From: a virus
Lineage: Duplodnaviria > Caudoviricetes
Length of the DNA: 63,622 nt
Virus record (IMG/VR): IMGVR_UViG_3300045747_000073
Location: 1 to 63,622 of that record
Strand: one strand, 5' to 3'
In this document: positions 1 to 33,359 of the stretch, one piece after another
Layout: each line of letters starts with the position of its first letter
Numbering within the stretch: the stretch's first letter is position 1
Made by a program: the position numbers and the translations under genes
The notes under the pieces: generated by a model
Database searches by the model: none
What the model saw: the letters and a program-made list of their open reading frames with translations, nothing else
Told to the model about the DNA's origin: nothing

Positions 1-167
1 TCCCTTGGATAAGACACCAAGACTCAAGAAGGTATTGGGGTGGGCAACCACACTAACCATGCTGGCTAGCCTAGGTAAGGCGGCTCTAAGCTCACAGGTA
101 GAGCTTGCTATGTCTACCCTAGGTACACCGGGTGACTTGGTAAACAAGCAGATTAAGAGCTACACTA
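1..167. repeat. Terminal overlap with 63456-63622 (assembly circularity)
   Basis: Sequences identical except A127 vs G63582; lies inside a gene, so it is an assembly overlap rather than a physical terminal repeat. Confidence 0.97.
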
Positions 168-1414: not shown

Positions 1415-4400
1415 ATGGCAACAATCATTCAGGGAAGACCAGTAACACGGGTTCCATCGGCTTCCACATCAGAGCGAATGCTCGCCTATCTTGGGGTGAA
1501 CCCTAATCTGGTTCCACCGATTGAAGAGGCAGTTGTTCCCGGGGCAGAAGCCTCACAGCAAGCGGTAGATACTATTGTTCCGGAGATGCTAGCGGTACCC
1601 CCGCTAGGGGGTCGGGGGAACTCTGCCGTACAGTTCGCCCCACCACTCGAACCAACATCTACACCGGAAGACTTGGCTATGCTCTCTCAATCGCCGATGG
1701 CGGGTAGAGAACGTTATTCAGTTGAGAACGTGGGTGGTGTTCCCGTTATGGATCCTGCTACTGGTGCTAATAAGGTAACCCCTGTAGGCATGGATCAGTA
1801 CGCCAAAGAGCGTGCTAACCAACTACAGTCACTACCAAACTATTCCCAGATTGATTCAGGCAAGAGCCCAACCGAGTATGCCTCTGAGGTTCTTCAGGAG
1901 CATGCCCGGTCTACTGGGAAGATGACACCTGAACATGCCCGTGAGATCGAGAACTGGGCGGATACTAGTGGTAACATCTTTGGTATCATCCAAGATAGAA
2001 CGATGGCTAACCTGTTTACTCAACCTAAGTTCTTCTCAACCAACCAAGACTATCTTGATGCAGGGCTTAAGGTTCCTGCTGCTACAGAGTTGATTGTTGA
2101 GAACGGATTAGAGGGGCATGAGAAGAATATTGCCACGGCTATCGGTGTGGGTATGAGCATGGGTGTTGGGCAAACACTGATGTATAAAGATGCTGATACT
2201 AAGGATCCTGTTAGTCCAACAGGTCGTACAATGACTGATGCCAGACCACTTGTGGACATCATCAATTCCACTATGGCCTTCGCTCAGAATGCCTTGGATA
2301 ATATGGGCTACAGTGTTCCACCTGAAGTTGTTCGTAAGTTTGCGACTATTCAAGCTCACTCTGAGATTGCTGATGGTAACCTTATCGAGATGAAGGATGA
2401 ACGGGGTCGTTCGGTATTTGGTGCCACACCAGACACTAAGGACTACTCCCGTAAGATGTCTTACTTAGCAGAAGCCTTGAGTGGTGATACCAAGCGTAAG
2501 GGTGTTTCATATGCACCTAATATCTCTGGATCAACCTTTACTGCACCCGGTAGCCAGCTGACTAAGGGGTCCATCACTCCTGATGGAACTAAGGCAACTA
2601 ACGCAGAAGTTGTGAAGGACTTGCTGTCATCCATCCAGTACGTTTACCGCCCTATGGATGTGGCCTACAAAGAGCTAGAGCTTAATATGATCCAAGAAGC
2701 TATGGAGCCTGAGGGTCGTTGGTCTAATAGTGAGTTTGCTAAACGTAACAAGGTGTCTAAAGCTAACTACAATGCGGCTATGGCCGAGTTCAAGCCACCA
2801 GAAGGGTATGACCCAGCAGACCCACAGCAAGTAGAGAAGTTCCAGAAGGACAAGGCAGAACATGCCCGTAGCGTTATCAATGATAAGCTTAAGCTGTTGA
2901 ACTATGATGTCAACACTGCTAAGGGTATCGCCGCCCCATTCTATATCTCCTTGTTGCATGACAACGCTAACCAACGGTTCTACGAGAACACTCGCGGTGC
3001 TGATGCAACTAACTCTAAGACCGGTGTTCGTGAGATGCGTAATCCGTTGAACCAAGACTGGGTTCGTCCTACTAGTTTGTTTGATTCCAAAGAAGTTGAA
3101 CGGATTAAACGGGAAGGCACTGCTGCCCTGTATAAGAACGGTAATGCTAGACAGACTGCCTTTGACAACATGAATATCTCTGATCTGAATGCGGTTGGAA
3201 CAATGATTGCTGCTGTAATTAACTACAATACAGTAGTGAACTCAGACAAGACCGTGCTTAAGCTTCCTGAGAGTGTTCTGTTGGGTATGTATACCCCTGC
3301 TATTGGTGGTGCCTTGGCGCAGTTAGGTGCCCAGTACAAAGCATTCATGGCTAATCCTAAGCAGGGCGATCATACCAATATCAAGCAACACCTAGCGGCC
3401 ATGCCTACTGGTGAAGCACTGGGTAATAAGAACTTGTGGGATAGCTTGGATTCTCTGCTGACCGGGTTCAATGATCCCAACCTCAAGCAGAAGCACGTAC
3501 TAATGTCCTATCTGAACTTTGATGACGGTAATCAGAATGGTATCTTCTTGCAGTCTTTGTTCTATGGTGACTCACCCAATGCTCGTCGTCTGGGTACGTT
3601 CGATCCTACTCTAAACGACATGCGGCAGTTAGCTAGTGGTGTTATTAAGGGTGAGATCAAGAACTTACTAAAGGACAACCCAGAAGCACTCGCTGCTTGG
3701 GGTAACTTCTTTGATGATGTCGGTAAGGATGACAAGTTCGCGGCAGATATGTTCAAGAAGCCTATCATGCGTAACTCGTATGGTATGGATGCTTCCATGT
3801 TTGAGACCCACATCTTTGACTTCTTGGTAGAGAAAGAGGATGCATTTACTAAGCATGTACTAGATACTGGTGTATACAAAGACATGGGTGAGGCTGCAGC
3901 AATGCTCAACAGGGCATTAGAAGCAACACTCCATAAGATTGTTAATCAGCAGTATAGCTCAGTGGTTAAGGCGGCAGGTCGTATGATGGCAGCAGTTGGT
4001 GGATACCCTATTCTTAAAGCACCTGACGGTGACGATATGGTTCTTACACCAGTAAGTCTACAGGGTGTTAACCAACAAGCTAACGACAAGCTTGAGTACC
4101 GCACCCTGCTTAGTGGTGAACGGGTTATGGTTAAGAACAAGGCATACAAGACGGTTGATATTGCTACCGAGGGTGGTGACGTTATTAGCACACCAATAGC
4201 CACTCGCCAAGCCAATCCCGCGTTCCATAAGGGTGTACAGACCTATTACCACGATGGTACTGGCGAGGTATCTACCTTCAAGAACTTCGCAGGCTCAGGT
4301 CTGAAGAACTACATGGCTGTGATGCCTATTCAAGGTGCTGATGGCTCGCTGGTTAAGCTTACGACACTTGCAGTGAACAAGAACAGAACCAATAAGGCTG

Positions 4401-5149
4401 TTCTGCCTGTGTCCTACAACCACGACGCTATTAACTCTACGGGGGCTGGTGCGTTGTACTATCGTAACGCCTACAACAACATTGCCATCCCACAGGCCAT
4501 CCCAGAGATTGCTAAGTTTGGTAAGAGGCTTGAAGCAGCTCTGATGCAAGAGATCCAGAAGACAAAGACTAAAGTATCTGGCATGGGCACTTGGATTGGT
4601 ATCGGTGAAGATGGTGATTACCCGGGCATGGGTGGTTTGTTTGATGAGCTATACGAGAAGATCAGACCAGACGGTTCCTACAAGAACTACTTCTTGCTCC
4701 GGCAAGGGTATGATGTAGATAATAAGTCTGTTCCTTCTGATGTTAAACAAAAGGCATTGTCCTCATGGGATAAGTACTCCGGTAAGATCAAGGACGCAAT
4801 CAACGAGGCTAAGAAGCTGGGTTGGCGTGAGCCCGGGTCTATTGATGAGAACATCCGGGCTGTTGCTGTTGTCAAGCAAGCAGACTATATCAAGATGATT
4901 GATCTGGCGGGTAGACAGCTTAAATTGTTTGGTGACTCCGACAGCAAGCTACACTCTTGGGCCGCTAACTTTGAGAACAAGGTTCTTAAGACGGGTCGTG
5001 ACTTAGCCCTAGCCACTAAGCAGGGCGGTATCGGGCAGATGACTGCTTCGGGTGGCGCTAAGGCAATGTCAGCGGATAAGCTGTATAGCAAACCAATTAC
5101 CGGGTCTCCTGAGCCAAGCACTACTAACCAAGAAGAAACCCCTTTCTAA
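1415..5149 (+). CDS. Divergent single-subunit RNA polymerase, putatively virion-associated (1244 aa)
   Basis: Ordered motifs NQRFY, FDDGNQNG (A, D704), KKPIMRNSYG (B, K781-x7-Y789-G), PIQGADG, NHDAI (C, D1004); last gene of the ejection-protein block. Confidence 0.8.
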   Translation: MATIIQGRPVTRVPSASTSERMLAYLGVNPNLVPPIEEAVVPGAEASQQAVDTIVPEMLAVPPLGGRGNSAVQFAPPLEPTSTPEDLAMLSQSPMAGRERYSVENVGGVPVMDPATGANKVTPVGMDQYAKERANQLQSLPNYSQIDSGKSPTEYASEVLQEHARSTGKMTPEHAREIENWADTSGNIFGIIQDRTMANLFTQPKFFSTNQDYLDAGLKVPAATELIVENGLEGHEKNIATAIGVGMSMGVGQTLMYKDADTKDPVSPTGRTMTDARPLVDIINSTMAFAQNALDNMGYSVPPEVVRKFATIQAHSEIADGNLIEMKDERGRSVFGATPDTKDYSRKMSYLAEALSGDTKRKGVSYAPNISGSTFTAPGSQLTKGSITPDGTKATNAEVVKDLLSSIQYVYRPMDVAYKELELNMIQEAMEPEGRWSNSEFAKRNKVSKANYNAAMAEFKPPEGYDPADPQQVEKFQKDKAEHARSVINDKLKLLNYDVNTAKGIAAPFYISLLHDNANQRFYENTRGADATNSKTGVREMRNPLNQDWVRPTSLFDSKEVERIKREGTAALYKNGNARQTAFDNMNISDLNAVGTMIAAVINYNTVVNSDKTVLKLPESVLLGMYTPAIGGALAQLGAQYKAFMANPKQGDHTNIKQHLAAMPTGEALGNKNLWDSLDSLLTGFNDPNLKQKHVLMSYLNFDDGNQNGIFLQSLFYGDSPNARRLGTFDPTLNDMRQLASGVIKGEIKNLLKDNPEALAAWGNFFDDVGKDDKFAADMFKKPIMRNSYGMDASMFETHIFDFLVEKEDAFTKHVLDTGVYKDMGEAAAMLNRALEATLHKIVNQQYSSVVKAAGRMMAAVGGYPILKAPDGDDMVLTPVSLQGVNQQANDKLEYRTLLSGERVMVKNKAYKTVDIATEGGDVISTPIATRQANPAFHKGVQTYYHDGTGEVSTFKNFAGSGLKNYMAVMPIQGADGSLVKLTTLAVNKNRTNKAVLPVSYNHDAINSTGAGALYYRNAYNNIAIPQAIPEIAKFGKRLEAALMQEIQKTKTKVSGMGTWIGIGEDGDYPGMGGLFDELYEKIRPDGSYKNYFLLRQGYDVDNKSVPSDVKQKALSSWDKYSGKIKDAINEAKKLGWREPGSIDENIRAVAVVKQADYIKMIDLAGRQLKLFGDSDSKLHSWAANFENKVLKTGRDLALATKQGGIGQMTASGGAKAMSADKLYSKPITGSPEPSTTNQEETPF

Positions 5150-6534: not shown

Positions 6535-7417
6535 GCTAATTGTTGAACACCCTCAACCTGATCGGAGTATTCCTCGAAGTCATTCCAATCAATCCCGGCA
6601 GGAATCTTAGCAGCCATATCCTTGTACTCCTGTTCAGTGCATTCTTCGTAGGGTGCTTGTTGATATGTGCCACCATCGTCCGGCAGGAACGATACGCCAG
6701 TACACTCATCGAAGTGGTTATAAACCCATGACCCAACCTCCATCCATTCATTCTCCTTTATGGAGATAGTTACTGATGGATTATGGTCAGTGTACCATGT
6801 CTTGTACTTGAGCCATAGTTCTAAGTGTTGAATCGCCGTAAGATCCTTCTTAGTAAACCCGGCGCATTTCTGTGGAAACGAGAAAACCACAGTATCTTGA
6901 GGTTTCATAACGCAGTCTTCATGAGGGAATCCTTGCTCAATAAGGAAGGTAGTCATTGGATCCTTCTTATCCTGTCGAATACGACGAATGTAGAAGGGTG
7001 CATGCCCCGGGTGGATACCACTAGATGTCTGAGTAAGCTGGCTCACCGTGCCCTCAGGTTTGATCGTGGTGATTGCCTTTGACCGTGGGATGCCCAGGGT
7101 ATCAGCCCAGATATTGTTTGTCTCTGTGGCACAATCTGATAGCTTCTTGAGGATGTGCTCAAGAGAGATGATAGACTCACCACGGAGGATTGGGTTGTCA
7201 AGGATACCAGTCATGGATACACCCAACAAACGCTCCTCTTCAGTGTTCTGCTGCCAGATCTTACGCAGATACGGGAAGTCAGTGAGGGTGGCTTGCATGG
7301 TACCCATGATAGTAGCAATGCGTACTTTCTCCAGCAAGGTTTCGATGGTATCTTGTGGGGATACTACTACAGTAGATAGGTTACAAAATTGTTGTGGACG
7401 CAATAAAATCTCTCCAC
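6507..7417 (-). CDS. nrdJ: Class II ribonucleotide reductase, exon 2
   Basis: (C)GEILLRPQQFCNL, TTIKPEGTVS, C-terminal CVSGVC. Confidence 0.92.
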
Positions 7418-8293: not shown

Positions 8294-9263
8294 ACGGATT
8301 GACCCCATATTCTACGTCAGCACTCCGAAGACCCTTCTTACTAGCCTGCTTCTGTGCTGCTTCACGATTGAAGATACCACGTTCACCGGAGTGGCTATCA
8401 TAGATTGACAACCATTCCTTCATGAACTCACCGATGGAAGGCTTCTCAGTGTATACTGCAGAGTTATTAGCTAGTGCTCGTTCTGGGGTATGCTCCCACC
8501 AGTTACCAGACTTAGCTGTGGAATGGGAGTAGCTATTCAGGTCACCCAAGCTAATGAGTGCGGATCGACGTACACCACCCACCACTACAACCTCACCAAT
8601 CTTGCACATCAGATCATGGCACTCGATAGGTTTCAGCTTACGACCCTGAGCCTGTTTGAACTTCTCTACGGTGTATTCAAACAAAGAGACCAATGGGGCA
8701 GGACCACTAGCACGACCACCGAAGGTCTTGAGTGGTGCTCCGGCGGGACGTACCCGGGAGACATCCCAACTGAGGATATTACCTTTGTACAAGCTATAGA
8801 GCAACGTCTTGTATGCCTCGCACCAACCCTCTTTGCTGTCCTCTACAGGGATCTTGATGAAGGTGCAATCATACAGGCTAGGAACCTCTGGAAGCTTCTC
8901 AGTGTATTGTTTCTCACAAGAGAAGCCTACACCAGTACCATTCAACAGGATATACATGGCTTCATCGAACGATCGTGGGTCATCTACCGTGATATACGAA
9001 CAGTTGTAGCCGGACACCGGTGATCGTTCCAATGCTGGGCCTGCGGTCATGACTGAGCGCATGGATGGCAGTGCCTTTAGACTGACAATGTTCTCATACA
9101 GGGTGCCCCAGATACGAGCATCTTTAGGGATCTTGTTGTCGAGTTTAGTACTGAAGTAATCCACCCAACGGAATGCTGTCTCATCCCAGTCTTCACGACG
9201 GTTCTGATCTGGGAGATAACGGGAGTACCTGGACTTCGAGATTACCTTTTGATACTGATTCAT
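8294..9263 (-). CDS. nrdJ: Class II ribonucleotide reductase, exon 1
   Basis: SRYSRY, LPSMR, YNCSY, GTGVGFS, VVVGGVRRSALISL; ends GVNP. Confidence 0.92.
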
Positions 9264-9742
9264 TTATTTTTCCTATTCAAAATATTGTTTCCTGCTGAGA
9301 CTAATCGTGCACCCGTAACACTTTTGTTACTGCTATAAATACCTAATATACCCGGTATCTGGTATAGGCGTACACCTGAATTGAGTAATTCCACGGCCCT
9401 GAGTGCGTGCTCTTCCGTGTAATTGTAAGCCTTGAATACGTCTGGGTTACCTTGTTTGTTGAACAGGGGTTTAAATAGCTTTATTGTCGAGCTTTCCTTT
9501 TGTAAGGCGGTCGGCCTATCTAACATTGTTTCTATAATTACGGCTACATCTGCCATAGTATAGCCCATATAATACAGATCGGTTATCCATTTAGTATGAT
9601 CTTCACTTCTGCTAGTGCCAGATGACGTTCCCGTTGCCCATGCACGGGATCCCGTTCCAATTCCTATATACATTATCTCACCAGTTTGTGGATCTATATG
9701 GTTATAGATGTAATACAACTCCTTCATGGGCCTCCTTAACAA
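9260..9742 (-). CDS. GIY-YIG-like endonuclease
   Basis: YYIYNHIDP...MYIGIGTGSRAW, conserved Glu and PLFN. Confidence 0.65.
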   Translation of the reverse strand: MLRRPMKELYYIYNHIDPQTGEIMYIGIGTGSRAWATGTSSGTSRSEDHTKWITDLYYMGYTMADVAVIIETMLDRPTALQKESSTIKLFKPLFNKQGNPDVFKAYNYTEEHALRAVELLNSGVRLYQIPGILGIYSSNKSVTGARLVSAGNNILNRKNK

Positions 9743-11925
9743 AAGAAATACTGACTGTTTTGGACATCGTTTATATCCAGTGATCCGAGAACTGGTTGTG
9801 TTGCTGAGAAGCTAGGTTTATACTCCATCAAGTTATCTTCGAGTAGATCAAAGAAGTTTTCTACATCATACTGAGCTATGAAGGTCATCTTAGTGATGTC
9901 CTGCAATAGATCAACGTCAGACGCATGACAACTAAAGCTATCATGTACCGCAGCGAATGACCCATTGAATGCTACAATGGTGTTGGCCATGTGAGCAGCA
10001 TCATAACTATGTACTACATTCGGGCTGATCCCCGAGGCGAATGATCTCCGGCATGGGATCTTCTCTCCGGTAGTCTTACCGACTACATCTATCTTAACCA
10101 CATGCATGATCCTGCCTGTCTTACTCCCGGGTAAACCCTTAATGGTTCCCCTCTGCTTGTGCTCATGCTGAAGGTTTGCCTTGTATACGACCGGGAAACC
10201 GCTAGGTGTCTTCCAAGACAACTCATTAGAGCCATTAGCGAGTTCATGCTCAGCCATCTTCTGAAGGTACTTAGTAGTCTTCAGTGGTCCTTGGCATACC
10301 TCGTTGATTGAGTCTATGAGCTTACCAGCCAACATCTCGCAGTCATCTTCGCTGATGTTGTACTTGTGGTTGAACCCTAGCATATGCAGATCATCGTACA
10401 TGTTAGAAGCTATCCGCTTCTTACCTGCTGAGTACGCACGAGTCATAGAGCCCCTCTTAGCAATGCCCTTGCGGATATGCTTCATGGGTATACCACGACT
10501 AGCGAACCAGTCAGGGAGTTTACCTACTAGGTTCTTAGCCACGGCTACGTAGAAGTCCTTCTGTACAGCTTCATTCGTGAGTGACACTAACGATCCTGCT
10601 GCTTTGTCCTTGGACATTGCTGCAAGGTGTTGCCAGCCATTGTTCGAACCATCGATACCCACGGGTAGCCCTGAGTAGTAAGGCTTGCCTAATGCTTGTG
10701 CTATGGTGTAGTTAAAGAGTTCTACACAACAAGATAAGAACCCATACGGCTTCTCTGCTTTAGGTGTCAACTGCTCAGCCTTACCCAACTTAGCAATCAT
10801 GCTATAGTTCTCGATAGTCCACTGAAAACGATCCTCCATCGTCATCTTGTCTACTGATATGGTGTCCAGACCTTCTTCTTCCAAGTACTTCCGGTAGTCG
10901 GTTGTCGTCCAGCTAGGGATCTCATTGATATCATATGATTGATTAAATGAGGTTGCAGCCTTGATGCATATCCACCGATAGCCACTCTTAGTAACCTCCT
11001 TTGTATCCTCAAACAAGAAAAGACTTCTCGCAAGGTCTCCCCCTTGATAAGACAAGAATGATTCAGTGTAGTACATACGCCCACGGTAGTCACAAGATAC
11101 CTCCTGATAGAATGTTTTATCCAGCAGCATTACTGCCTTCTTAATTACTTGCTCGTACTCGTACTTCTTGGAGATCAGTCGTTGTACTCGTGTGTCCCTG
11201 TGTCCAAGGAAGGGGGTGCCTTCGTAAGTGTATTCGCCCCTTGGGAGATCGCCAATTGGATACGAGCCGATAACGCCATCTCCATCAACAAGCTCGATAG
11301 TTGATTTTGGGCTTTCTGCAATTGCTGTGGCGAGTACTGCACCATTGATTTTCCATCCTTGCTGGCGTAGAACTTCCAAGGCTTTAACGAATCGCTCATT
11401 CAAACACTCCTTAAATTTATCTTCGTCAGTCCATCCCTTGATGAATGACTGGTGGGTTAGCGGGCTTTTAAGCCCCGATATCCTAGGTAACGGGACAAGG
11501 GATGTGCCAACGAGTACTGGCTTGATACTGTTAATGTCACCCTTGAGTAGCAGCATGTATGGCGCTTTGAAACCATCGTATGCCCTCTCGATATCTATCA
11601 AGTCATCCTGAAGAAAGGTTTCAATCAGGATGTCACCTAACGCAAGTATATCCTTAATATATGGGTCAATAAGCCGCAGCCTACTAGCCAGTTGAGTACC
11701 TATCATGGTGCTCACAAAGGTTAGTTTAACTGCGGCCATATGGGTTGCACTCTTATTACGGATACAGTACCGTGTTAATGAGTCCCATGCTTCCTCTACA
11801 ATTTCCTCCAATTCGAATTCCCATAATGGGTATTGTGCCAGAAGTAAACAACCTTGGTTGTACATTTTTTCTGACTCCGGTATTACCTTATTGACTCGTT
11901 GAGCCAAATAAACCGATGGATCCAT
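9736..11925 (-). CDS. T7-like single-subunit RNA polymerase (729 aa)
   Basis: DYRGRMY, IDGSNNGWQH, KRGSMTRAYS, SPNVVHSYDA, VHDSF. Confidence 0.95.
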   Translation of the reverse strand: MDPSVYLAQRVNKVIPESEKMYNQGCLLLAQYPLWEFELEEIVEEAWDSLTRYCIRNKSATHMAAVKLTFVSTMIGTQLASRLRLIDPYIKDILALGDILIETFLQDDLIDIERAYDGFKAPYMLLLKGDINSIKPVLVGTSLVPLPRISGLKSPLTHQSFIKGWTDEDKFKECLNERFVKALEVLRQQGWKINGAVLATAIAESPKSTIELVDGDGVIGSYPIGDLPRGEYTYEGTPFLGHRDTRVQRLISKKYEYEQVIKKAVMLLDKTFYQEVSCDYRGRMYYTESFLSYQGGDLARSLFLFEDTKEVTKSGYRWICIKAATSFNQSYDINEIPSWTTTDYRKYLEEEGLDTISVDKMTMEDRFQWTIENYSMIAKLGKAEQLTPKAEKPYGFLSCCVELFNYTIAQALGKPYYSGLPVGIDGSNNGWQHLAAMSKDKAAGSLVSLTNEAVQKDFYVAVAKNLVGKLPDWFASRGIPMKHIRKGIAKRGSMTRAYSAGKKRIASNMYDDLHMLGFNHKYNISEDDCEMLAGKLIDSINEVCQGPLKTTKYLQKMAEHELANGSNELSWKTPSGFPVVYKANLQHEHKQRGTIKGLPGSKTGRIMHVVKIDVVGKTTGEKIPCRRSFASGISPNVVHSYDAAHMANTIVAFNGSFAAVHDSFSCHASDVDLLQDITKMTFIAQYDVENFFDLLEDNLMEYKPSFSATQPVLGSLDINDVQNSQYFFC

Positions 11926-25661: not shown

Positions 25662-26036
25662 ATGTCAGAAGTTAGCAAAGCGGATAAATATCCACAGCTT
25701 ATTCCTTTCAACAGTGAGGCTGCACGGGCTGCACAGCGTAAATCAACAGAACAAAAGTGGTGCCAACGGGCTGTTGCAGAAAACTACAAGCTTAATGCTC
25801 GTACTTTCATCAAGATCATGGCTGATTTGCCTGACCTTGGCCCCTTGGAAATTATGAAATTAGCCATACACGACGCACTAGATAAGAGCGATTTTGAGGC
25901 TGCTGCCAAGTATGCGTCTATGCTTGCCGAATATCAAATGCCCAAACTTGCTCGAATTGAATCTACGGTGACCACTCGCACGTCAGACCTCTCTGATGAG
26001 GAGCTTAAGGCTATCATTGACAAGGAAGGATTATAA
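25662..26036 (+). CDS. Putative terminase small subunit
   Basis: Helical 124-aa protein with AEYQMPKLARIE and DLSDEEL tail; same promoter as terL; no terS next to terL. Confidence 0.6.
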   Translation: MSEVSKADKYPQLIPFNSEAARAAQRKSTEQKWCQRAVAENYKLNARTFIKIMADLPDLGPLEIMKLAIHDALDKSDFEAAAKYASMLAEYQMPKLARIESTVTTRTSDLSDEELKAIIDKEGL

Positions 26037-26037
26037 T

Positions 26038-26664
26038 ATGTTTTTCGTATATCTCCATAAGAAAGGAGATACGGGCGAACCTTTCTATGTTGGTAAAGGT
26101 ACAGGTAAGAGGATTTATTTTCACTCTGGCCGAAACCAATGGTGGCATAATATTGTTGCTAAACATGGTATAGCCTACGAGTTCTTAGGTTACTTCGAAC
26201 TTGAGGTGGACGCTTTCGCGTATGAGAAGGACAGGATTGCCTTCTATCGTTCAGAGGGCTACACTTTATGTAACCTTACTGATGGTGGTGAGGGTGCATC
26301 TGGTCGTGTTCTTTCGGAAGAATCTCGTGCCAAGATGATTGCTTCTGCCAAGGCTAAACCAGCACAATCACAAGAGGCTAGAACTAAACGTAGCCAATCT
26401 ATGTCTGGTCGTGTTCGTAGCCCTGAGCACTGTGCTGCTCTTAGTGAAGTTCAGAAAGGTAAACCACATAGCTCTGAGCATACAGCAAAGGTTGCTCTCG
26501 CTCGTCTTGGTATGAAGCTTTCTGATGAAACTAAAGCCCGTATGTCTGCCTCTAGCAAGACCCGTCCTCCTATCTCCGAGGAAACAAGGCAGAGGCTTCG
26601 TGATGTTGCTGTTCTTCGTGAACAAGCTAAGAAGCAGGCACAAGCCTTACTCACTCTCCTATAG
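26038..26664 (+). CDS. GIY-YIG homing endonuclease with NUMOD3 repeats
   Basis: FVYLH...FYVGKG, NLTDGGEG, repeated SEE(T/S)R motifs; ATG 26038. Confidence 0.85.
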   Translation: MFFVYLHKKGDTGEPFYVGKGTGKRIYFHSGRNQWWHNIVAKHGIAYEFLGYFELEVDAFAYEKDRIAFYRSEGYTLCNLTDGGEGASGRVLSEESRAKMIASAKAKPAQSQEARTKRSQSMSGRVRSPEHCAALSEVQKGKPHSSEHTAKVALARLGMKLSDETKARMSASSKTRPPISEETRQRLRDVAVLREQAKKQAQALLTLL

Positions 26665-26674
26665 GTACCGGCTA
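26658..26674 (-). promoter_or_regulatory. Putative phage RNAP promoter TAGCCGGTACCTATAGG
   Basis: 17-bp family copy facing ssb across the inverted cassette. Confidence 0.8.
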
Positions 26675-27362: not shown

Positions 27363-27620
27363 TCATTTTGAATGTTTTCCTATCAAGTAAATAACTTCGT
27401 TCAGGTTGATCGTACCCATATTACAGGTGAAGTCACCATTGTCTTTAGTGTGATTAACAAAGTAACTCATCAACCCGGGATATCGCCAGTAGTCAGTGGA
27501 ACAGTAGATGACTATGCCTGTGTTGCCTAGGTGGATCTCGTTACGGCCTTCAAAGAGTAAGTCATCCTTTAGTGAGTACTCAATGTTGAGGGAGGCAAGA
27601 GCTGTCAAGAGTTCTTTCAT
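27363..27620 (-). CDS. Hypothetical early protein (85 aa)
   Basis: AGGAG RBS. Confidence 0.6.
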   Translation of the reverse strand: MKELLTALASLNIEYSLKDDLLFEGRNEIHLGNTGIVIYCSTDYWRYPGLMSYFVNHTKDNGDFTCNMGTINLNEVIYLIGKHSK

Positions 27621-27623
27621 TTG

Positions 27624-27950
27624 TTATACTCCTACACATGGATACATTTTAGTCAAGATGAATGCAACAGAGTCCCTAGCATCTAACTTCAATGCAGATT
27701 CACCGTTAGCGCCCTTAGAGACACTAGTGATGACCTCCCCTATCCTTGTGAATAAAAACTTGCCTGAGACCCCTTCTGGTACACAGATGCGTGTGTCTGA
27801 GGCTACACCTAGGATGAACCCTAGAGCGTATGCTTGGGCGGCATCGTTACCGTTGATACGATCGTTTAAAGTCTTTGTATCGATGAATCCTGCCTGTGCT
27901 GTTAGTGCAACAAAGGACAAGAGTAATGTAGCTATGCTGTATTTTTTCAT
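27624..27950 (-). CDS. Secreted Rap1a/Tai-like protein
   Basis: Signal peptide (AQA), GFILGVASD, ICVPEGV, terminal YPC. Confidence 0.6.
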   Translation of the reverse strand: MKKYSIATLLLSFVALTAQAGFIDTKTLNDRINGNDAAQAYALGFILGVASDTRICVPEGVSGKFLFTRIGEVITSVSKGANGESALKLDARDSVAFILTKMYPCVGV

Positions 27951-28231
27951 TCTGGATCCTTCACTTCTATTACATCAAATACTGCTATACAACCTTCCAT
28001 AGGTTTAATACCATCGTTGTAGAGTGATTCTCCAATGTTATCAAAGAACCTGCGATTGTGACCAATACCAGTAATATGATCACATACAGCAAGAAGTAAC
28101 GATGCTTCTTCTAGAGTGAGGCTGATGTTGATGGATGTAACTTGAGGAACCATTTTGGTGGTTGTTGTGTAGATCATTCCGAAATATCTCCTGTTAGTTC
28201 TATCTTGGATACAGGTGCACCTTGTACACAT
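27947..28231 (-). CDS. Hypothetical early protein
   Basis: True start probably MIYTTT. Confidence 0.5.
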   Translation of the reverse strand: MCTRCTCIQDRTNRRYFGMIYTTTTKMVPQVTSINISLTLEEASLLLAVCDHITGIGHNRRFFDNIGESLYNDGIKPMEGCIAVFDVIEVKDPE

Positions 28232-28357
28232 AGCGATGAATACAAGTCACCAGCTAACTTAGCGCTAATACGCGAGCACCAAGCCCGTATCTCTGAGGCT
28301 TCTTCCTCAGTGGGCCTTAGGGTGAAGGTCTTGGTTGTTGTTGGGGTAAGGTTCATA

Positions 28358-28672
28358 CTAGCTTGCCATCTCCCTAAGTTCTCTGATTGATAATGTACTA
28401 ACAAATAACAAGAAGAAGATCCTTGTATCTGTCATCTCACCCGGTTTACCAAAGCCATCATTGTAAGCGGCATCGCTGCTGGATAGTTTTCGTGTGATTT
28501 GATAGGCGTTATATGCGCCAAGCTTTTCCGCTGTGTAGCAGATACCATTGGCATAGCTACCGTAGTTGGCCTCTAGTGTTCCTCTTTCGAGGATCTGTCT
28601 ACATGCTGTTCGGTATGCAGTCATGTCGTTGATTGAGAATTTAGGACGTAGTCCAATAGCTATGCTATTCAT
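28358..28672 (-). CDS. Hypothetical early protein (104 aa)
   Basis: Co-oriented ORF; its first codons overlap double-hairpin copy C. Confidence 0.55.
   Translation of the reverse strand: MNSIAIGLRPKFSINDMTAYRTACRQILERGTLEANYGSYANGICYTAEKLGAYNAYQITRKLSSSDAAYNDGFGKPGEMTDTRIFFLLFVSTLSIRELREMAS
28643..28668. promoter_or_regulatory. Double-hairpin element, copy C
   Basis: AGGAC-GTA-GTCCA-ATAGC-TAT-GCTAT. Confidence 0.6.
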
Positions 28673-28765
28673 GCTTTCACCCTTTTCATGATTAGTGCTA
28701 ATATAACAAAGATTAAGAATAGTATCAGTTCCATAGGTTACTCCACAATTTGTTTCGTAACTGCG

Positions 28766-29071
28766 TTACTCAACTGAATAAAACCAAGTGTTTGCATCAT
28801 TACCACCAGCAGCAACAAAGATTACTGGCTTACCTGACTCGTATGCCTTCTGAAGGTCTTTGGTGAGCTTGATGAGGGCTTTCTCGTTAGTAATACGAGA
28901 ATAGAGGCACTTACGAGTGCGTGAGTCAGAACAATCAACAAAGATTGATGTCGTAGCTTCATCAACACGAGGCACTGAGGTGATCACTACGGGGAGACTT
29001 TTACGGTCTGGTTGAGTGATGTTGTTGGTTACGAAGGAGACAGAAACAGATGTGAATTTAGGAGTAAACAT
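28766..29071 (-). CDS. Hypothetical early protein, apparent paralog of 30933-31286
   Basis: Shared NN, DxxxRxC, PxxFxAA and AxxWF patterns. Confidence 0.65.
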   Translation of the reverse strand: MFTPKFTSVSVSFVTNNITQPDRKSLPVVITSVPRVDEATTSIFVDCSDSRTRKCLYSRITNEKALIKLTKDLQKAYESGKPVIFVAAGGNDANTWFYSVE

Positions 29072-29110
29072 AATATATGAGCTTAAGTTGGTTGTAGTGT
29101 ATAGGGACCG

Positions 29111-29127
29111 TAGTCGGTACCTATTGA
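29111..29127 (+). promoter_or_regulatory. Variant promoter TAGTCGGTACCTATTGA
   Basis: 13-bp core intact; embedded in hairpin ATAGG-G-ACCG-TAGT-CGGT-A-CCTAT. Confidence 0.6.
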
Positions 29128-29153
29128 GAGTAAATTTAACTGTGCTAGCTAGT

Positions 29154-29170
29154 TAGCTGGTACCTAATAG
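29154..29170 (+). promoter_or_regulatory. Putative phage RNAP promoter TAGCTGGTACCTAATAG
   Basis: 17-bp family copy with no credible downstream + gene. Confidence 0.75.
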
Positions 29171-29276
29171 GAAGGTTGATTAGTTACAGTTTAGCGGGGG
29201 ACTGTAACAGCATTTAAATATGCATTAATCGGCCATCTTAGGGGTCTGCCCAGCCCCGCCCCTAGTATGTTAAAGT

Positions 29277-29302
29277 AGAACGTAGTTCGACAGCTATGCT
29301 GT
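29277..29302. promoter_or_regulatory. Double-hairpin element, copy B
   Basis: AGAAC-GTA-GTTCG-ACAGC-TAT-GCTGT, intergenic. Confidence 0.65.
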
Positions 29303-29653
29303 AATATTGAAGAGTATATTAGTAAGTACCTCTTAAACGTTAAGTTGTAGTTAGTGAATCCTTAAAGGAAAAGAATAAAGGTTACTTGGTAGTATACTTG
29401 AAAGTATATTATAGGAGAGGAAGGATTTTTTGATATAACACTTCTTGATACACTTTGTAATGCCTCCTCTGTAGTGATCCTATGAGTAGGGAGCAACGGC
29501 ACGTTGTGACCGCTGGTAAGTGGTGTTTGTCAGAATGATGTACAAATTGTTCGAAAGGTGATCCAAAATGAACAATTTGAACGTTTGACACTCATCACAC
29601 ACAAAATCACTCACAAAATCACCATAAAAATTAGCCCCTGCTTGTGTAGTGTA

Positions 29654-30265
29654 CTACCTAGTCCTCCCACAAGCCATATCTAAATACTTAATAGTACCCT
29701 CAGCAAATCTCTCTGCTGCTTCCTTGTTAAGATGTACTCCATCGGTAGTATCTGATAGACCTTTGTATAATATATTCTGTCTCCAATTAGCATCAATGAT
29801 ATCACGGTTAACAGAGGTATATGTGTGGATATATGTATCTAATATTGCTGCATTATCTATTTGTGTCTGATTAAGTATGCTATTAGGCGCGTTAGTTAGT
29901 GGTACTATTCCTGTTACCACAATGGTTGCTCCTTTAATGCTCTCGATAGTGCTCTTGAATAGTGCCTCTACCTCTGGCTCTGGTGTATCACCCACGTCAT
30001 TACCGCCAAGCTCTATTAGTACTACTTGAGTGTGGAACTCTTTTGTTATCTCTCTGAGCTTCATGCCACCAACTGCTAAGTCAGTGATGATGAAGTTAGG
30101 TCGTCTTGCTCTGATGTAGTCTGAGAAGCCTACTAGGGTGTTCTTAGCGATGATACTGTCGCCAGTCATTGTAATGGTGCATGGTGTTACTGTAGTAGGA
30201 GCTATGCTCCCGCCCCCGCCACACCCGGCTAGTGCTACCGCTAGTAGTGTTAGTAGTGCTTTCAT
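29654..30265 (-). CDS. SGNH/GDSL hydrolase lipoprotein
   Basis: Lipobox LAGC; GDSI, AVGG, LGGND, DGVH. Confidence 0.88.
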   Translation of the reverse strand: MKALLTLLAVALAGCGGGGSIAPTTVTPCTITMTGDSIIAKNTLVGFSDYIRARRPNFIITDLAVGGMKLREITKEFHTQVVLIELGGNDVGDTPEPEVEALFKSTIESIKGATIVVTGIVPLTNAPNSILNQTQIDNAAILDTYIHTYTSVNRDIIDANWRQNILYKGLSDTTDGVHLNKEAAERFAEGTIKYLDMACGRTR

Positions 30266-30266
30266 G

Positions 30267-30506
30267 TTAGTTCACCTCTGTGGTCATCACTTCTTCACTG
30301 CTATCGTATATGCCAGTCACCTCGACTATGGCACCCGGCAGGTCAGTGATGAACATGCAGTTGGCTAGTACCTTAGCAGTGGTTGCTGTGAGGTAGTTGT
30401 GTCCACCGATAGTGGTGATAGTGCAACCGAACTCAGCGGCTGCTTCGTGGATCTCTTCGTAGTTGATGTTGAGGCCGTCGATAGTGGTAAGTGCAATGTA
30501 TTTCAT
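30267..30506 (-). CDS. Hypothetical early protein (79 aa)
   Basis: AAGGA RBS. Confidence 0.6.
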   Translation of the reverse strand: MKYIALTTIDGLNINYEEIHEAAAEFGCTITTIGGHNYLTATTAKVLANCMFITDLPGAIVEVTGIYDSSEEVMTTEVN

Positions 30507-30575
30507 GATAAATCCTTGTAGAGTGTATTAGCCAAATGCACTGTACTTACCCGGTGCAGGTCTCTCTGTGCTTAA

Positions 30576-30601
30576 CGGACGTAGTCCGCGAGCTATGCTC
30601 G
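30576..30601. promoter_or_regulatory. Double-hairpin element, copy A
   Basis: CGGAC-GTA-GTCCG-CGAGC-TAT-GCTCG, two perfect 5-bp stems, intergenic. Confidence 0.7.
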
Positions 30602-30932
30602 TTGTCCAGAGAATGGACAGAGTAACTTAATACCCGTGGTGACTGATGATCACTTCAAAGTCAGTGTTCGGGAAGAATGCCAGCAGGTATGCTTCGTTCT
30701 CCGACAGTTCAATCATGAAGTGGTGGTCTTGTTTGGTGAAGATGAAGTATGACATGATAAGCCCTATTGGTTGAGTGAATGATTGACAATGAACATACTA
30801 ACCACATGGACGATGCCAGTGATTAGAGCGAGTGCCATGATGATACTATTGCTAGTGTCTATGGCATAGAAGATCGCTGATCCCCAGATAGCGTACAGTA
30901 CGATGTCAGCGAGTATGTTGCCCATGATAACC

Positions 30933-31286
30933 TCAGAAGGGCAACGACAGGTCAACGTTCTCAGTACGCATAGCAAGGTAGTCGTCAGCAGTGATGACAC
31001 CAACGAACCATTGCTCAGCACTCCAGTCACGACCATTGTAACGAGCAGCAGCAAATGCACACGGTTGGTTGACTACCCCTCGTGCACTGTTTGCAATAGC
31101 ATCTAGAGTGAGACTAGGCATAACCCTCACAGCCATTGCAGTCTTGAGAACACACTGACGGAATGAGCCATCAGCAAGCTTAACAACCACACGATCACTG
31201 AGCACCTTGACTTCTGTTACGATGCCAAGGCTCCAGTTAGCGCCCGACAGGTTGTTGAGAGCGATTGATTTACGAGATGCAGCCAT
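30933..31286 (-). CDS. First gene of the early arm (117 aa), ends DLSLPF
   Basis: GGAGG RBS before ATG 31286; the longer 31460 start runs through a low-complexity tract. Confidence 0.7.
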   Translation of the reverse strand: MAASRKSIALNNLSGANWSLGIVTEVKVLSDRVVVKLADGSFRQCVLKTAMAVRVMPSLTLDAIANSARGVVNQPCAFAAARYNGRDWSAEQWFVGVITADDYLAMRTENVDLSLPF

Positions 31287-31294
31287 GATAGCCT

Positions 31295-31451
31295 CCAAAA
31301 GAAACAGGGCAAGAGCGCCCAACCAACACAACAGAGCAACAACCCACAACGCGAGCACAAGGCAAGCCAAGGACGCACGGGAAGAGCCCACAAAGGAAAC
31401 AAGGGGGTCACACAAAGGAACAAGGCGAACCCACAACACACACAAGAAACC
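31295..31451. other. 157-nt tract with a single T on the + strand; candidate genome-end region
   Basis: Only T is at 31408; repeat CACAAAGGAA(A)CAAGG at 31389 and 31411; lies where the two arms diverge. Confidence 0.6.
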
Positions 31452-31478
31452 TTTTGACACGCAAAGAGAGACACCGAT

Positions 31479-31495
31479 TAGCCGGTACCTAATAG
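31479..31495 (+). promoter_or_regulatory. Putative late promoter upstream of terL
   Basis: TAGCCGGTACCTAATAG. Confidence 0.85.
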
Positions 31496-31619
31496 AGATA
31501 TTTTAAGGGCACTCAAAAGAGTATTCTTAAACTATCATTATTCCAAAAAAATTACTAATAATTTCTAGCCAAGTATACCCATACAGAGTATAGGGATATT
31601 CATTAAGGAACAACAAACA

Positions 31620-33359
31620 ATGGCATTCACCGACGTCATCCGCAAGGGCCACCATGCAACGCAGCCCCTCCCAGAGATCCCAGAGGATCTCCTCCAATAC
31701 ATCCCCCAGTCTGCTGCACAGAAACGTGCGAATGGTCTAAAGCTAGCTGCACTAAGAGAACTCAAGAAAAGGGAGAAGCTAAATGAATACAGGGGGAACT
31801 TCGAAGTATTCTGCAATGAACAGGTTAAAGTACTACCCAAGGATGCCTCTATTGGGTTCATTCCATTACATCTTAATGAAGCCCAACAAATCGTCAACGC
31901 CAAGATTGAAGAGCAGCTTAAGGCAACTGGTAAAGTCAGGGCGATCATCCTTAAGGCTAGGCAGATGGGTCTCTCGACATACACAGCTTCGAGGGTATTC
32001 TGGAAGGCTTATCTTAACCCTTACCATAAGTCGGTTATTCTAGCTCATGATGCAGCTACGGCTGATGCATTGTTCACCATGAGCAAGAACATTATTAGCC
32101 GGATGACTGATGAGTACAGACCAGAGTTTAAAAAGAGTAATGCGAAGGAGATTCAGTTCTTGCATAACGACTCAGGGTATCGGCTATATACCGCTGGATC
32201 AGGTGAAGCGGGACGAGGATCAACCCCTACTGTTTGTCACATGTCTGAGGTAGCCTTTTGGCAGAATGATGAGTCACTACTCGCTGGGCTATTCCAAGGG
32301 ATTTCCCAAGCTGACGGTACTGAAGTGATCCTTGAGAGCACTGCTAACGGTATTGGTAATGCCTTTCATAGGCTCTGGAATGGTGCTGTGGAAGGTACTA
32401 ACGAGTATGTAGCTATCTTTGTTCCTTGGTTCTTGATGTCAGAGTATCGTAGGGAACACCCTAAGGACATGGAGCTATTGCCTGAAGAGGAATCCCTTGT
32501 TCTCAAGTTCTCACTAACCAAGGATCAGTTATACTGGCGTAGGTTGAAGATAGCAGAGTCAGGGGAACTCAAGTTTAAGCAAGAGTATCCATCAACTCCT
32601 GAAGAAGCATTTCTTGTTTCTGGTGCTAATGTATTTAACGTGGAGAAGCTAAATGCCCTCATACCTCAACCAGTACTGGCTAAGCGGGAGTTTGATTTTG
32701 ATTCTTGTATGTTTGATGATGTCAGACATGGTAGTCTGGAGATTTTTAAGTACCCGACTTTTGAAGATGCTTTTGCTGTTGGTGCTGATGTTTCTCTGGG
32801 TGTTGGGAGAGATTTTTCTACGGCTGTAGTAATGAACAAGAGAAAGGAAGTATGTGCAATCTATCACAATAACACTATTGATCCTTCTCAATTTGGAGAT
32901 CTACTGTTCTATCTTGGCAGATATTATAACAATGCACTTCTAGCAGTAGAATCAAACAGCATGGGTATTGCCACCTTGAATAGGCTAGCCCAGATGAACT
33001 ACATCAATATGTACTTCCAAACTAAGATGGCTAATGTCTCTAAGGAGGATGGTACTAGAATGGGTTGGAGAACTACCTCATCCAGTAAGCCAGCTATCAT
33101 CGGGTTCCTTAAGTCTGCCATTGAGCAGGAAGAGATCTGGATCCCTTCTAGGATGATGATTCAGGAACTTATGAATTTTGTTGTTAGTGACACTGGTAAG
33201 ACTGGTGGGTCCACTGGTAACAACGATGACTCTGTAATAGCACTAGCTATTGTCTTGGAAGTAATCCGGACTCATGGAGACAGACTAACAAACAATCGGG
33301 TACCGTTCACTCAACAGAGTAAGACGTACCAATCTCAAGGAGATACAAATTGGCTATAG
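31620..33359 (+). CDS. terL: Terminase large subunit
   Basis: LKARQMGLST, HMSEVAFW, ESTANG, GADVSLG, NDDSVIA. Confidence 0.95.
   Translation: MAFTDVIRKGHHATQPLPEIPEDLLQYIPQSAAQKRANGLKLAALRELKKREKLNEYRGNFEVFCNEQVKVLPKDASIGFIPLHLNEAQQIVNAKIEEQLKATGKVRAIILKARQMGLSTYTASRVFWKAYLNPYHKSVILAHDAATADALFTMSKNIISRMTDEYRPEFKKSNAKEIQFLHNDSGYRLYTAGSGEAGRGSTPTVCHMSEVAFWQNDESLLAGLFQGISQADGTEVILESTANGIGNAFHRLWNGAVEGTNEYVAIFVPWFLMSEYRREHPKDMELLPEEESLVLKFSLTKDQLYWRRLKIAESGELKFKQEYPSTPEEAFLVSGANVFNVEKLNALIPQPVLAKREFDFDSCMFDDVRHGSLEIFKYPTFEDAFAVGADVSLGVGRDFSTAVVMNKRKEVCAIYHNNTIDPSQFGDLLFYLGRYYNNALLAVESNSMGIATLNRLAQMNYINMYFQTKMANVSKEDGTRMGWRTTSSSKPAIIGFLKSAIEQEEIWIPSRMMIQELMNFVVSDTGKTGGSTGNNDDSVIALAIVLEVIRTHGDRLTNNRVPFTQQSKTYQSQGDTNWL

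What the first reader, a model, noticed from the sequence alone, without database searches (positions are those of the whole stretch)
28643..30601. Three covarying double-hairpin elements: candidate promoters of the virion RNAP
Seen on the + strand: CGGAC-GTA-GTCCG-CGAGC-TAT-GCTCG (30576), AGAAC-GTA-GTTCG-ACAGC-TAT-GCTGT (29277) and AGGAC-GTA-GTCCA-ATAGC-TAT-GCTAT (28643). Loops and spacing are invariant while stems change compensatorily. All lie within 2 kb of the early region, with an AT-rich 4-mer on the 5' side; copy A has C-TTAA before the stem. Established: N4 vRNAP promoters are template-strand hairpins with a 5-bp stem and a 3-nt loop, and C-GNA-G DNA triloops are unusually stable. The + strand is the template for the early genes. 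Inference: hairpin promoters with a second hairpin that I do not know from N4.
Basis: partly seen in the sequence, partly recalled or inferred. Interest (0 to 1): 0.9.

Follow-up and report, generated by a model that had tools for sequence, protein, structure and literature searches.

The report
Double-hairpin repeats in phage early region
Three exact copies of a 26-base double hairpin sit among the early genes of an uncultured freshwater phage that carries a second, probably injected, RNA polymerase; they may be its start signals, but this is untested.

Summary
Three 26-nt elements (28643, 29277, 30576, + strand) share invariant loops and inner stems and have compensatory outer stems. Two decayed copies lie at 30188-30210 and 27914-27940. 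No such element was found in any relative or public collection searched.

The window is a whole 63.6-kb podophage genome. It has a T7-like RNAP of 729 aa with its own conserved 20-bp promoter. Its 1244-aa late protein also has a T7/N4-type RNAP fold.

Copy A matches N4 promoter geometry closely: template C, TTAA, 5-bp stem, C-GNA-G loop. Copies B and C do not keep the start region. Nothing outside the 26 nt is conserved. Copy A is a 26-nt insertion into a family-conserved sense-strand structure. Copy C and both decayed copies overlap ORFs.

I rate the N4-style internal early promoter reading at about 0.4. The rivals are an RNA-level module (0.3), another protein site or mobile module (0.15) and a + strand stop or pause site (0.1). 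No RNA data exist.

The parts
30576..30601 (+). Double hairpin copy A (H1 CGGAC-GTA-GTCCG, H2 CGAGC-TAT-GCTCG). It lies 70 nt upstream of the ATG at 30506 of a 79-aa early ORF, inside the spacer of the composite element.
   Evidence: 41.9 bits, E 1e-7
29277..29302 (+). Double hairpin copy B, in the 582-nt non-coding stretch 29072-29653. It lies 107 nt to the right of the tandem T7-like promoters and before an AT-rich stretch.
   Evidence: 39.6 bits
28643..28668 (+). Double hairpin copy C. It overlaps codons 2-10 of ORF 28358-28672(-) if the ATG at 28672 is the start, or lies 19 nt upstream if the ATG at 28624 is the start.
   Evidence: 40.6 bits
30188..30210 (+). Decayed copy D (TAC-TGTA-GTA followed by an intact GGAGC-TAT-GCTCC), inside the coding sequence of the GDSL-lipase-like early ORF.
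   Evidence: (15 bits, E 1.5)
27914..27940 (+). Decayed copy E (AGGAC, 11 nt, AGCTATGCT). H1 is lost and the outer H2 pairs are T.G and G.T on the + strand. It covers codons 5-13 of ORF 27624-27950(-).
30537..30618 (-). Family-conserved composite element on the sense strand: hairpin with TTCTC loop (30604-30618), GAGAGACC (30559-30566) and a hairpin with GGGTAAGTAC-type loop (30537-30558). Copy A sits in its spacer.
1415..5149 (+). 1244-aa protein with a T7/N4-like single-subunit RNA polymerase fold, last gene of the late operon: the candidate virion RNAP.
9736..11925 (-). 729-aa T7-like RNA polymerase (PF00940).
31450..31466 (-). Single-copy motif CTTTGCGTGTCAAAAGG at the head of the early region. 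It is conserved in all relatives examined and is a candidate first early promoter.
31295..31451 (-). Leader of the first early ORF with one A in 157 nt on the sense strand.
29101..29170 (+). Two tandem copies of the T7-like promoter motif (one degenerate) pointing right. An origin-like arrangement.

Best explanation
The elements are self-contained, structure-constrained 26-nt modules: two abutting hairpins, each with a 4-5 bp stem and a 3-nt loop. They are specific to this phage and have been inserted repeatedly, always in one orientation, across the first 3.5 kb of the early region. Invariant loops and inner stems with freely covarying outer stems are the signature of a site read in folded, single-stranded form by one sequence- and shape-specific protein.

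The most likely reader is the phage's second RNA polymerase, the 1244-aa T7/N4-fold protein encoded at the end of the late operon and presumably packaged and injected. On this reading the + strand is the template for the early genes. H1, with its C-GTA-G triloop of the stable G-N-A type, extrudes as in N4 and serves as the promoter hairpin. H2 is an upstream auxiliary hairpin. Transcription starts a few bases 5' of H1 on the template, near 30571 for copy A, and runs leftwards. The copies would then act as internal early promoters that re-start transcription along the entering DNA.

Shown: the repeats, their pairing constraint, their orientation, the polymerase fold, and the separate promoter of the other polymerase. 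Inferred: packaging of the polymerase, hairpin extrusion, binding, start sites and direction.
For: Repeats and covariation are real. All three intact and both decayed copies lie on the + strand within 27.9-30.6 kb, among minus-strand early ORFs. The only C-GNA-G hairpins on the + strand of the early region are these three, while genome-wide counts are at background: 4 and 4 per strand against 3.2 expected. Copy A reads GC-TTAA-CGGAC-GTA-GTCCG on the template strand. The two N4 template-strand C-GNA-G hairpins found in the first 4.5 kb of the N4 genome, which I take to be promoters P1 and P2 (my assignment; the record annotates no promoters), read CC-ATAA-GTTGC-GAA-GCAAC and CC-AAAA-GAAGC-GGA-GCTTC. 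The N4 review describes three promoters, a 3-nt loop with a sheared G:A pair, four spacer bases, and conserved inner but free outer stem bases (passages). LUZ7 early promoters have stems of 4 bp or more and 3-nt loops, and some lie inside genes (passages). A second RNAP exists: an AlphaFold model of residues 300-1244 (pLDDT 78, pTM 0.78) matches T7 and mitochondrial RNAPs (Foldseek E 2e-10 to 1e-7, about 700-800 columns). It also matches N4-type virion RNAP segments (E 8e-12 to 5e-7). The family alignment keeps FDDGNQNG, K..YG and VHDS blocks (reading them as motifs A, B and C is recalled). The 729-aa RNAP's 20-bp promoter stands before late and middle genes. Its only minus-strand copy inside 26.7-31.5 kb is a degenerate one at 26655-26674, at the lower edge and downstream of every early ORF discussed here. 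Sigma-70-like sites are not enriched there: 12 found against 15.7 expected. The wobble pairs of the two decayed copies pair on the + strand only.
Against: No sequence outside the 26 nt is shared, so there is no common initiation region. With N4 spacing the starts of B and C fall on template A, which would give a U start. The loop centre is T and -8 is A, where N4 needs G and G. The first three early ORFs (31286-30627) have no copy upstream. The early region is instead headed by a single-copy motif conserved in the window and in all 10 relatives with that region that were matched. That motif could be the only early promoter. The element is absent from 661,514 nt of relatives' DNA, including the early regions of 13 relatives. 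It is also absent from two public collections. Contigs of a close relative replace copy A by other sequence. Copy A is a 26-nt insertion in the spacer of a family-conserved element. That element's wobble pairs fit the sense strand, so copy A is probably transcribed from upstream. Copy C overlaps the better-supported start codon of its ORF, and D and E are inside ORFs. Packaging of the 1244-aa protein is not shown. No expression data were available.
Confidence: 0.4

Rival explanations
1. RNA-level module. The early genes are transcribed from one upstream promoter near 31466. The double hairpins fold in the polycistronic sense RNA (loops UAC and AUA) and bind a phage or host protein that controls processing, stability, pausing or anti-termination, or translation of the next cistron.
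For: Copy A lies inside a family-conserved structure whose stems use T.G pairs on the sense strand in 6 of 11 copies and whose loop covaries with GWGAG in 11 of 11. That stretch is therefore most likely RNA and is transcribed from upstream. The RNA minimum-energy fold keeps the double hairpin in all three contexts and encloses copy A in a 7-bp helix. Copies C and E lie just after start codons and D lies in a coding region. There is no conserved initiation region. A single conserved motif heads the early region.
Against: No G.U pair occurs in the three intact copies. The wobble pairs of the decayed copies fit the + strand, not the sense strand. Distances to the next start codon are inconsistent (-70, -205, +4). 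UAC and AUA triloops on 5-bp stems are weak (context z-scores -1.5, +0.35, -0.09). No Rfam family matches.
Confidence: 0.3
2. Site for another DNA-binding protein, or a small mobile or recombination-spread module with little or no function of its own, for example a regulatory cassette that marks mosaic boundaries.
For: The element is a discrete 26-nt unit without flanking similarity. Copy A is an insertion relative to the family consensus. Copy B sits in an AT-rich stretch, and a variant contig diverges exactly at its 5' edge. Decayed copies exist. It is absent from all relatives. A homing endonuclease gene lies nearby.
Against: Eight variable positions with strictly compensatory change argue for long-term selection on pairing, not recent spread. 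No target duplication is visible. No transposase-like gene was seen among the 19 ORFs scanned, though most ORFs were not scanned. Palindromic protein half-sites do not require compensatory change.
Confidence: 0.15
3. Stop or pause signals on the + strand for rightward (antisense or origin) transcripts made by the 729-aa T7-like RNAP from the + strand promoters at 25610 and 29105/29159.
For: All copies are on the + strand downstream of + strand T7-like promoters. Copy B lies 107 nt after the tandem promoters. The wobble pairs of D and E fit the + strand. The + strand RNA from 29168 folds well (z -2.4).
Against: No U-run follows copies A to D. The terminator scan lists none of them. The stems are short and weak. 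In the + strand RNA fold H1 of copy B is not formed. Sequence-conserved loops are not expected of terminators.
Confidence: 0.1

Closest known systems
Early promoters P1-P3 of coliphage N4 (virion RNAP hairpin promoters)
   Same: Three copies lie in the early region on the template strand. Each has a 5-bp stem and a 3-nt loop closed by C-G, with G at the first and A at the last loop base. Inner stem and loop are conserved and the outer stem only needs pairing. In copy A a 4-nt A/T spacer and a template C lie 5' of the stem. A T7-like RNAP is encoded among the late genes.
   Different: The loop centre is T, not G, and -8 is A, not G. A second abutting hairpin with a TAT loop is as conserved as the first. 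No conservation extends to the start site. Copies B and C lack the template C. The polymerase is a stand-alone 1244-aa protein, not the centre of a 3500-aa protein. The phage also has a full T7-like RNAP with a double-stranded promoter.
Early promoters of Pseudomonas phage LUZ7 (mapped by ONT-cappable-seq)
   Same: Stems of 4 bp or more and 3-nt loops, several copies including tandem and intragenic ones (passages of PMC9163698).
   Different: LUZ7 starts are G at 13-14 nt from the hairpin centre. Here no G-start position is shared among the copies.
Mobile promoter-stem-loop cassettes (PeSL) of T4-type phages (recalled, no call)
   Same: Short regulatory modules with a stem-loop are scattered among early genes. 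They vary between close relatives and lie at mosaic boundaries.
   Different: Those carry a sigma-70 promoter and are longer. Here no host-type promoter is present.
Single-stranded double-hairpin promoters: the minus-strand origin of f1/M13 and Frpo of plasmid F (recalled, no call)
   Same: Adjacent hairpins in single-stranded DNA are read by an RNA polymerase. Copy B lies in an origin-like region.
   Different: Those are long hairpins that mimic -35 and -10 boxes for host RNAP. The elements here are 13 nt each, and two of three lie outside the origin-like region.

Membership tests
N4-type virion-RNAP hairpin promoter | Inverted repeat giving a 5-7 bp stem and a 3-nt loop on the template strand of early genes | tested here: met
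   H1 has a 5-bp stem in A and a 4-bp stem in B and C, with a 3-nt loop, on the + strand, which is the template for the minus-strand ORFs
N4-type virion-RNAP hairpin promoter | Loop G-N-A closed by C-G (sheared G:A, stable DNA mini-hairpin) | tested here: met
   C-GTA-G in all three copies. N4 has C-GAA-G and C-GGA-G (review passages).
N4-type virion-RNAP hairpin promoter | G at the loop centre (-11) and G at -8, contacted by the polymerase | tested here: not met
   T at the centre and A at -8 in all copies. A different polymerase may differ in this.
N4-type virion-RNAP hairpin promoter | Conservation from -17 to +1 with a fixed spacer and start base | tested here: not met
   Flanks are TTAA, AAGT and ATTT. 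The template +1 base is C, A and A. No shared bases occur 5' of H1.
N4-type virion-RNAP hairpin promoter | Position upstream of early genes at the start of the early region | tested here: inconclusive
   A and B are intergenic and upstream of ORFs. C overlaps an ORF start. Three early ORFs precede all copies.
N4-type virion-RNAP hairpin promoter | A cognate T7-like RNAP that is packaged and injected | tested here: inconclusive
   The RNAP fold is shown. Packaging is only inferred from gene position and a weak neighbour match to N4 vRNAP.
N4-type virion-RNAP hairpin promoter | Mapped transcription start and hairpin-dependent transcription | not testable with these tools
   No RNA runs hold the sequence.
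Promoter of the phage's 729-aa T7-like RNAP | Match to the 20-bp consensus TAGYCGGTACCTAATAGRAG | tested here: not met
   None of the hits to the 12-13-nt core of this consensus (up to 2 mismatches) overlaps a copy. Only an 8-nt resemblance (CGTAGTCC) to the consensus's upstream part, which is my reading by eye contexts.
Intrinsic terminator | G+C-rich hairpin followed by a T/U run | tested here: not met
   None of the copies is in the terminator scan. The flanks lack T runs on either strand, except at decayed copy E.
Described RNA families (Rfam 15) | Covariance-model match | tested here: not met
   0 matches at E up to 1 in 27500-31700.
REP/RAYT or IS200/IS605-type hairpin elements | Hairpin repeats with a cognate HUH transposase gene | tested here: inconclusive
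   No such domain occurs in the 19 ORFs scanned. Most of the genome's ORFs were not scanned.

The most novel reading that the evidence does not exclude
A family of podophages outside Schitoviridae injects a stand-alone 1244-aa single-subunit RNA polymerase. In this member the polymerase is directed by portable 26-nt double-hairpin promoters on the template strand. An N4-like C-GNA-G hairpin is joined to a second, equally conserved upstream hairpin not known from N4. These cassettes can insert into RNA structures, an origin region and even the 5' ends of coding sequences.
Probability: 0.35. Interest if true: 0.8.

Novelty: new variant of a known kind. Interest (0 to 1): 0.6.

Why it matters
Hairpin promoters read in single-stranded form are known in detail only from N4 and its close relatives. 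This would be a second, simpler system: a 1244-aa polymerase separate from the injection domains, with a two-hairpin promoter. It would show how promoter shape recognition evolves in T7-like polymerases. It could also supply an orthogonal polymerase and promoter pair that works on structured single-stranded DNA. Even if the promoter reading fails, the elements are a clear case of a structure-selected module unique to one phage. They drew attention to a little-studied phage family whose cultured relative is roseophage CRP-7. That family has two single-subunit RNAPs, an almost A-free early leader and a conserved structured element before early genes.

Tried and rejected
Chance: rejected.

Host-type promoter: sigma-70-like sites are not enriched and none coincides with a copy. 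The host is unknown, so other promoter types are not covered.

Promoter of the 729-aa RNAP: a different motif.

tRNA or known RNA: none found.

Conservation in relatives. Strict geometric scan of 16 loci: only the window. Exact pattern in viral contigs: one hit, L016. It lies in what reads as a coding-like stretch of a record without the phage's RNAP and does not form the hairpins, so I take it as chance. Pattern in metagenome contigs: 0 hits. Covariance model R1 over 78 sources and 661,514 nt: nothing beyond the window. R1 on 5 records with the closest 1244-aa homologues: one 13.8-bit hit inside the polymerase gene, taken as chance. Those records are 22-47% complete. The 101-aa early protein in metagenome contigs: no relative.

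Sequence-level proof that the 1244-aa protein is an RNAP failed. phmmer and a profile against PDB found nothing. Pfam and PHROGs found nothing. hhalign against the phage's own RNAP family gave probability 0.15. Only the fold search and the language-model neighbours support it.

Start of the ORF at copy C: no homologue exists except the protein itself, so this stays undecided.

RNA evidence: no RNA holder listed. Only DNA contigs were laid, and parts without cover are not evidence.

Protein 60727-63621 against PDB: nothing.

Supplementary files were not consulted. N4 promoter figures are not held, so I read the hairpins from the N4 genome instead. The mini-hairpin review PMC13037366 was seen as a listing and abstract only.
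Full report
WHAT THE WINDOW IS. The window is one complete virus record of 63,622 bp (CheckV completeness 100). Minus-strand genes run from about 31.3 kb down to 5.4 kb: small early ORFs, then DNA polymerase, primase-helicase and a 729-aa T7-like RNA polymerase (PF00940, E 1e-52). Plus-strand genes run from the terminase at 31620 and an SU10-type portal to three giant ORFs, the last being 1244 aa at 1415-5149. The nearest named phage is roseophage CRP-7, whose RNAP is 32% identical and whose gene order is the same. DNA holders are pond and wetland metagenomes.

THE OBSERVATION. The 16-base pattern has three perfect hits and no others at up to three mismatches on either strand. 18 of 26 columns are invariant. 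28 of 30 pair cells are standard pairs, and three pairs change on both sides: one in H1 and two in H2. Shifted partners pair at only 22-43%. The outermost H1 pair holds only in copy A. The double hairpin is the minimum-energy DNA fold on either strand. I add two decayed copies. The H2 core AGCTATGCT occurs 7 times on the + strand and never on the minus strand, against 0.26 expected from base composition. Five of the seven lie in 27.9-30.6 kb. At 30188-30210 an intact H2-like hairpin follows a 3-bp remnant of H1. At 27914-27940 only AGGAC and the H2 core remain. The other two hits, at 38580 and 61621, are in-frame in late genes, lack pairing flanks, and may be chance.

THE POLYMERASES. A 20-bp motif, TAGYCGGTACCTAATAGRAG, lies immediately upstream of late and middle genes: 6187-, 17942-, 23120-, 25610+, 29159+, 31484+, 33536+ and 51200+. 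It recurs unchanged in relatives whose 729-aa RNAP is 62% identical. I take it as that enzyme's promoter. Inside 26.7-31.5 kb its only minus-strand copy is a degenerate one at 26655-26674, at the lower edge and downstream of every early ORF discussed here. Sigma-70-like sites are not enriched there either: 12 found against 15.7 expected.

The 1244-aa protein has no Pfam, PHROG or PDB sequence match. Its language-model neighbours carry PF00940 (0.92-0.93). Its family keeps FDDGNQNG, K..YG and VHDS blocks. An AlphaFold model of residues 300-1244 (pLDDT 78) matches T7 and mitochondrial RNAPs (E 2e-10 and on, probability 1.00). It also matches both T7-like RNAPs and N4-type virion RNAP segments in the viral library. 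CRP-7 gp33 is a homologue (E 3e-14). The passages of the CRP-7 paper that I read name only the T7-like ORF30 (PMC6918029). A metagenomic survey of N4-like viruses discarded proteins under 2500 aa (PMC10654107, passage). That the protein is packaged is inferred from its place at the end of the late operon and from a weak match of its neighbour to the N-terminal part of N4 vRNAP (E 3e-5).

FOR THE PROMOTER READING. According to the N4 review (passages), N4 has three early promoters conserved from -17 to +1. Each has a 5-7 bp stem and a 3-nt loop in which -10G and -12A form a sheared pair. Four A bases lie before the start, and outer stem bases only need to pair. In the first 4.5 kb of the N4 genome the two template-strand C-GNA-G hairpins, which I take to be P1 and P2 (my assignment; the record annotates no promoters), read CC-ATAA-GTTGC-GAA-GCAAC and CC-AAAA-GAAGC-GGA-GCTTC. 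Copy A reads GC-TTAA-CGGAC-GTA-GTCCG on the template strand, which is the same layout. LUZ7 shows that such promoters can have 4-bp stems, be numerous and lie inside genes. The pattern of invariant loops and covarying outer stems is what a shape-reading protein produces.

AGAINST IT. Nothing outside the 26 nt is shared. With N4 spacing, copies B and C would start on template A. The loop centre and -8 differ from N4. Conservation extends upstream into H2 rather than towards the start.

Three early ORFs (31286-30627) precede all copies. The early region is headed by a single-copy motif (CTTTGTGTGTGAAAAAG-like; window 31450-31466). It was found once at that place in the window and in 10 relatives. 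It is followed by a leader almost free of A on the sense strand: 157 nt with one A here, and by eye about 650 nt in two relatives.

No relative carries the double hairpin, nor do the collections scanned. In contigs of a close relative the stretch of copy A is replaced while the neighbouring element is kept. A variant contig diverges exactly at the 5' edge of copy B.

CONTEXT OF COPY A. In 13 instances from 9 genomes the sense strand carries a conserved composite element. It consists of a hairpin with a TTCWC loop, 0-7 nt of spacer (37 nt in the window), GWGAGACC, then a hairpin with a GGGTAWGTAC loop and freely covarying 4-8 bp stem, about 30 nt before an early start codon. Two of the 13 lack the first hairpin. 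In the 11 that have it, 6 use T.G pairs that would be A.C mismatches on the other strand. The W of the loop always matches the W of GWGAG: 4 of one kind, 7 of the other, though few independent events. This points to a folded sense strand, most simply RNA, perhaps a pseudoknot.

In the window this first hairpin (30604-30618), GAGAGACC (30559-30566) and the second hairpin (30537-30558) are all present. Copy A, 26 nt long, makes up most of a 37-nt spacer, against 0-7 nt in the 10 relatives that have the first hairpin. So copy A is an insertion, and it is probably transcribed from upstream. The RNA fold encloses it in a 7-bp helix. This does not exclude a DNA-level role, but it makes an RNA-level role a serious rival.

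OTHER CONTEXTS. Copy B lies after two tandem T7-like promoters and a strongly folding stretch and before AT-rich DNA, an origin-like layout. Copy C overlaps codons 2-10 of an ORF if the ATG at 28672, which has a GGGTG box upstream, is used. The alternative ATG at 28624 has no such box. The protein has no homologues to settle this. Copies C, D and E are read in the same frame for the H2 core (Ser-Ile-Ala), but the H1 remnant of E is in another frame than in C. The likeness is therefore at the nucleic acid level (my reading).

RELATIVES HAVE THEIR OWN MODULES. One relative has three 52-nt repeats, each with a covarying hairpin, a second hairpin, a ribosome site and a start codon. Another has seven copies of a hairpin module (six on one strand), three of them 6-10 nt and one about 67 nt before start codons. 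Lineage-specific hairpin modules in the early region thus seem to be a habit of this family. This fits either fast-evolving promoters or RNA signals.

VERDICT. I put the N4-style internal promoter reading at about 0.4, an RNA-level module at 0.3, another protein site or mobile module at 0.15, and a + strand stop or pause at 0.1. Transcript 5'-end mapping, or a transcription assay with the 1244-aa protein on hairpin oligonucleotides, would decide.

Noticed in passing
window 31295-31451 (minus strand sense); L005 about 8740-9420; L007 about 6340-6950: The leader of the first early ORF has one A in 157 nt on the sense strand. In two relatives the A-poor stretch looks about 650 nt long, by my reading of the printed sequence. 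Such RNA can hold no AUG, no stop codon and no GGAGG box, and the DNA can hold only G/C palindromes. Purpose unknown.
   Followed up: partly
window 31450-31466 (-): A single-copy motif (CTTTGTGTGTGAAAAAG-like) stands at the head of the A-poor leader in the window and in 10 relatives. It is a candidate first early promoter, with a possible CTTT/AAAG stem.
   Followed up: partly
window 30537-30618 (-); 12 further instances in 8 relatives (alignment A4): Conserved composite element before early genes: a hairpin with TTCWC loop, GWGAGACC, and a hairpin with GGGTAWGTAC loop and strongly covarying stem. Sense-strand wobble pairs and loop-to-GWGAG covariation suggest an RNA pseudoknot. No Rfam match in the window.
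   Followed up: partly
window 1415-5149 (+); L004 17859-21566 (-): A second single-subunit RNAP (1244 aa) is recognisable only by fold. It is shared with cultured roseophage CRP-7 (gp33) and with 50 IMG/VR loci. It is not mentioned in the CRP-7 paper passages I read.
   Followed up: yes
window 6187, 17942, 23120 (-); 25610, 29159, 31484, 33536, 51200 (+): A 20-bp T7-like promoter motif, TAGYCGGTACCTAATAGRAG, is conserved across relatives. Tandem copies at 29101-29170 followed by AT-rich DNA resemble a T7-type origin. The relative G002 has three in tandem.
   Followed up: partly
window 60727-63621 and 2-1414 (+): A giant ORF is cut by the ends of the record. Its first part has a weak match to positions 184-450 of the N4 vRNAP profile (E 3e-5). 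The two frames do not join exactly across the ends by my count.
   Followed up: no
window 25662-26664 (+): A plus-strand cassette sits within the minus-strand region. It holds a 124-aa ORF that lies elsewhere in other relatives and a NUMOD3 homing endonuclease. It is flanked by facing T7-like promoter motifs at 25610(+) and about 26674(-).
   Followed up: no
window 29654-30265 (-): This early ORF is a GDSL/SGNH lipase-like protein. By my reading of the translation it has a lipoprotein-type N-terminus. Decayed copy D lies in its linker.
   Followed up: no
L007 5163-6161; L082 1879-8714: Relatives have their own repeated hairpin modules in the early region. One has three 52-nt repeats that include a ribosome site and a start codon. 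Another has seven copies of an AACGAGACTCT hairpin module (six on one strand), three of them 6-10 nt and one about 67 nt upstream of start codons.
   Followed up: partly
window 38580 and 61621 (+): Two further exact copies of AGCTATGCT lie in-frame in late genes without pairing flanks. The strand bias of the 9-mer is 7 to 0.
   Followed up: partly
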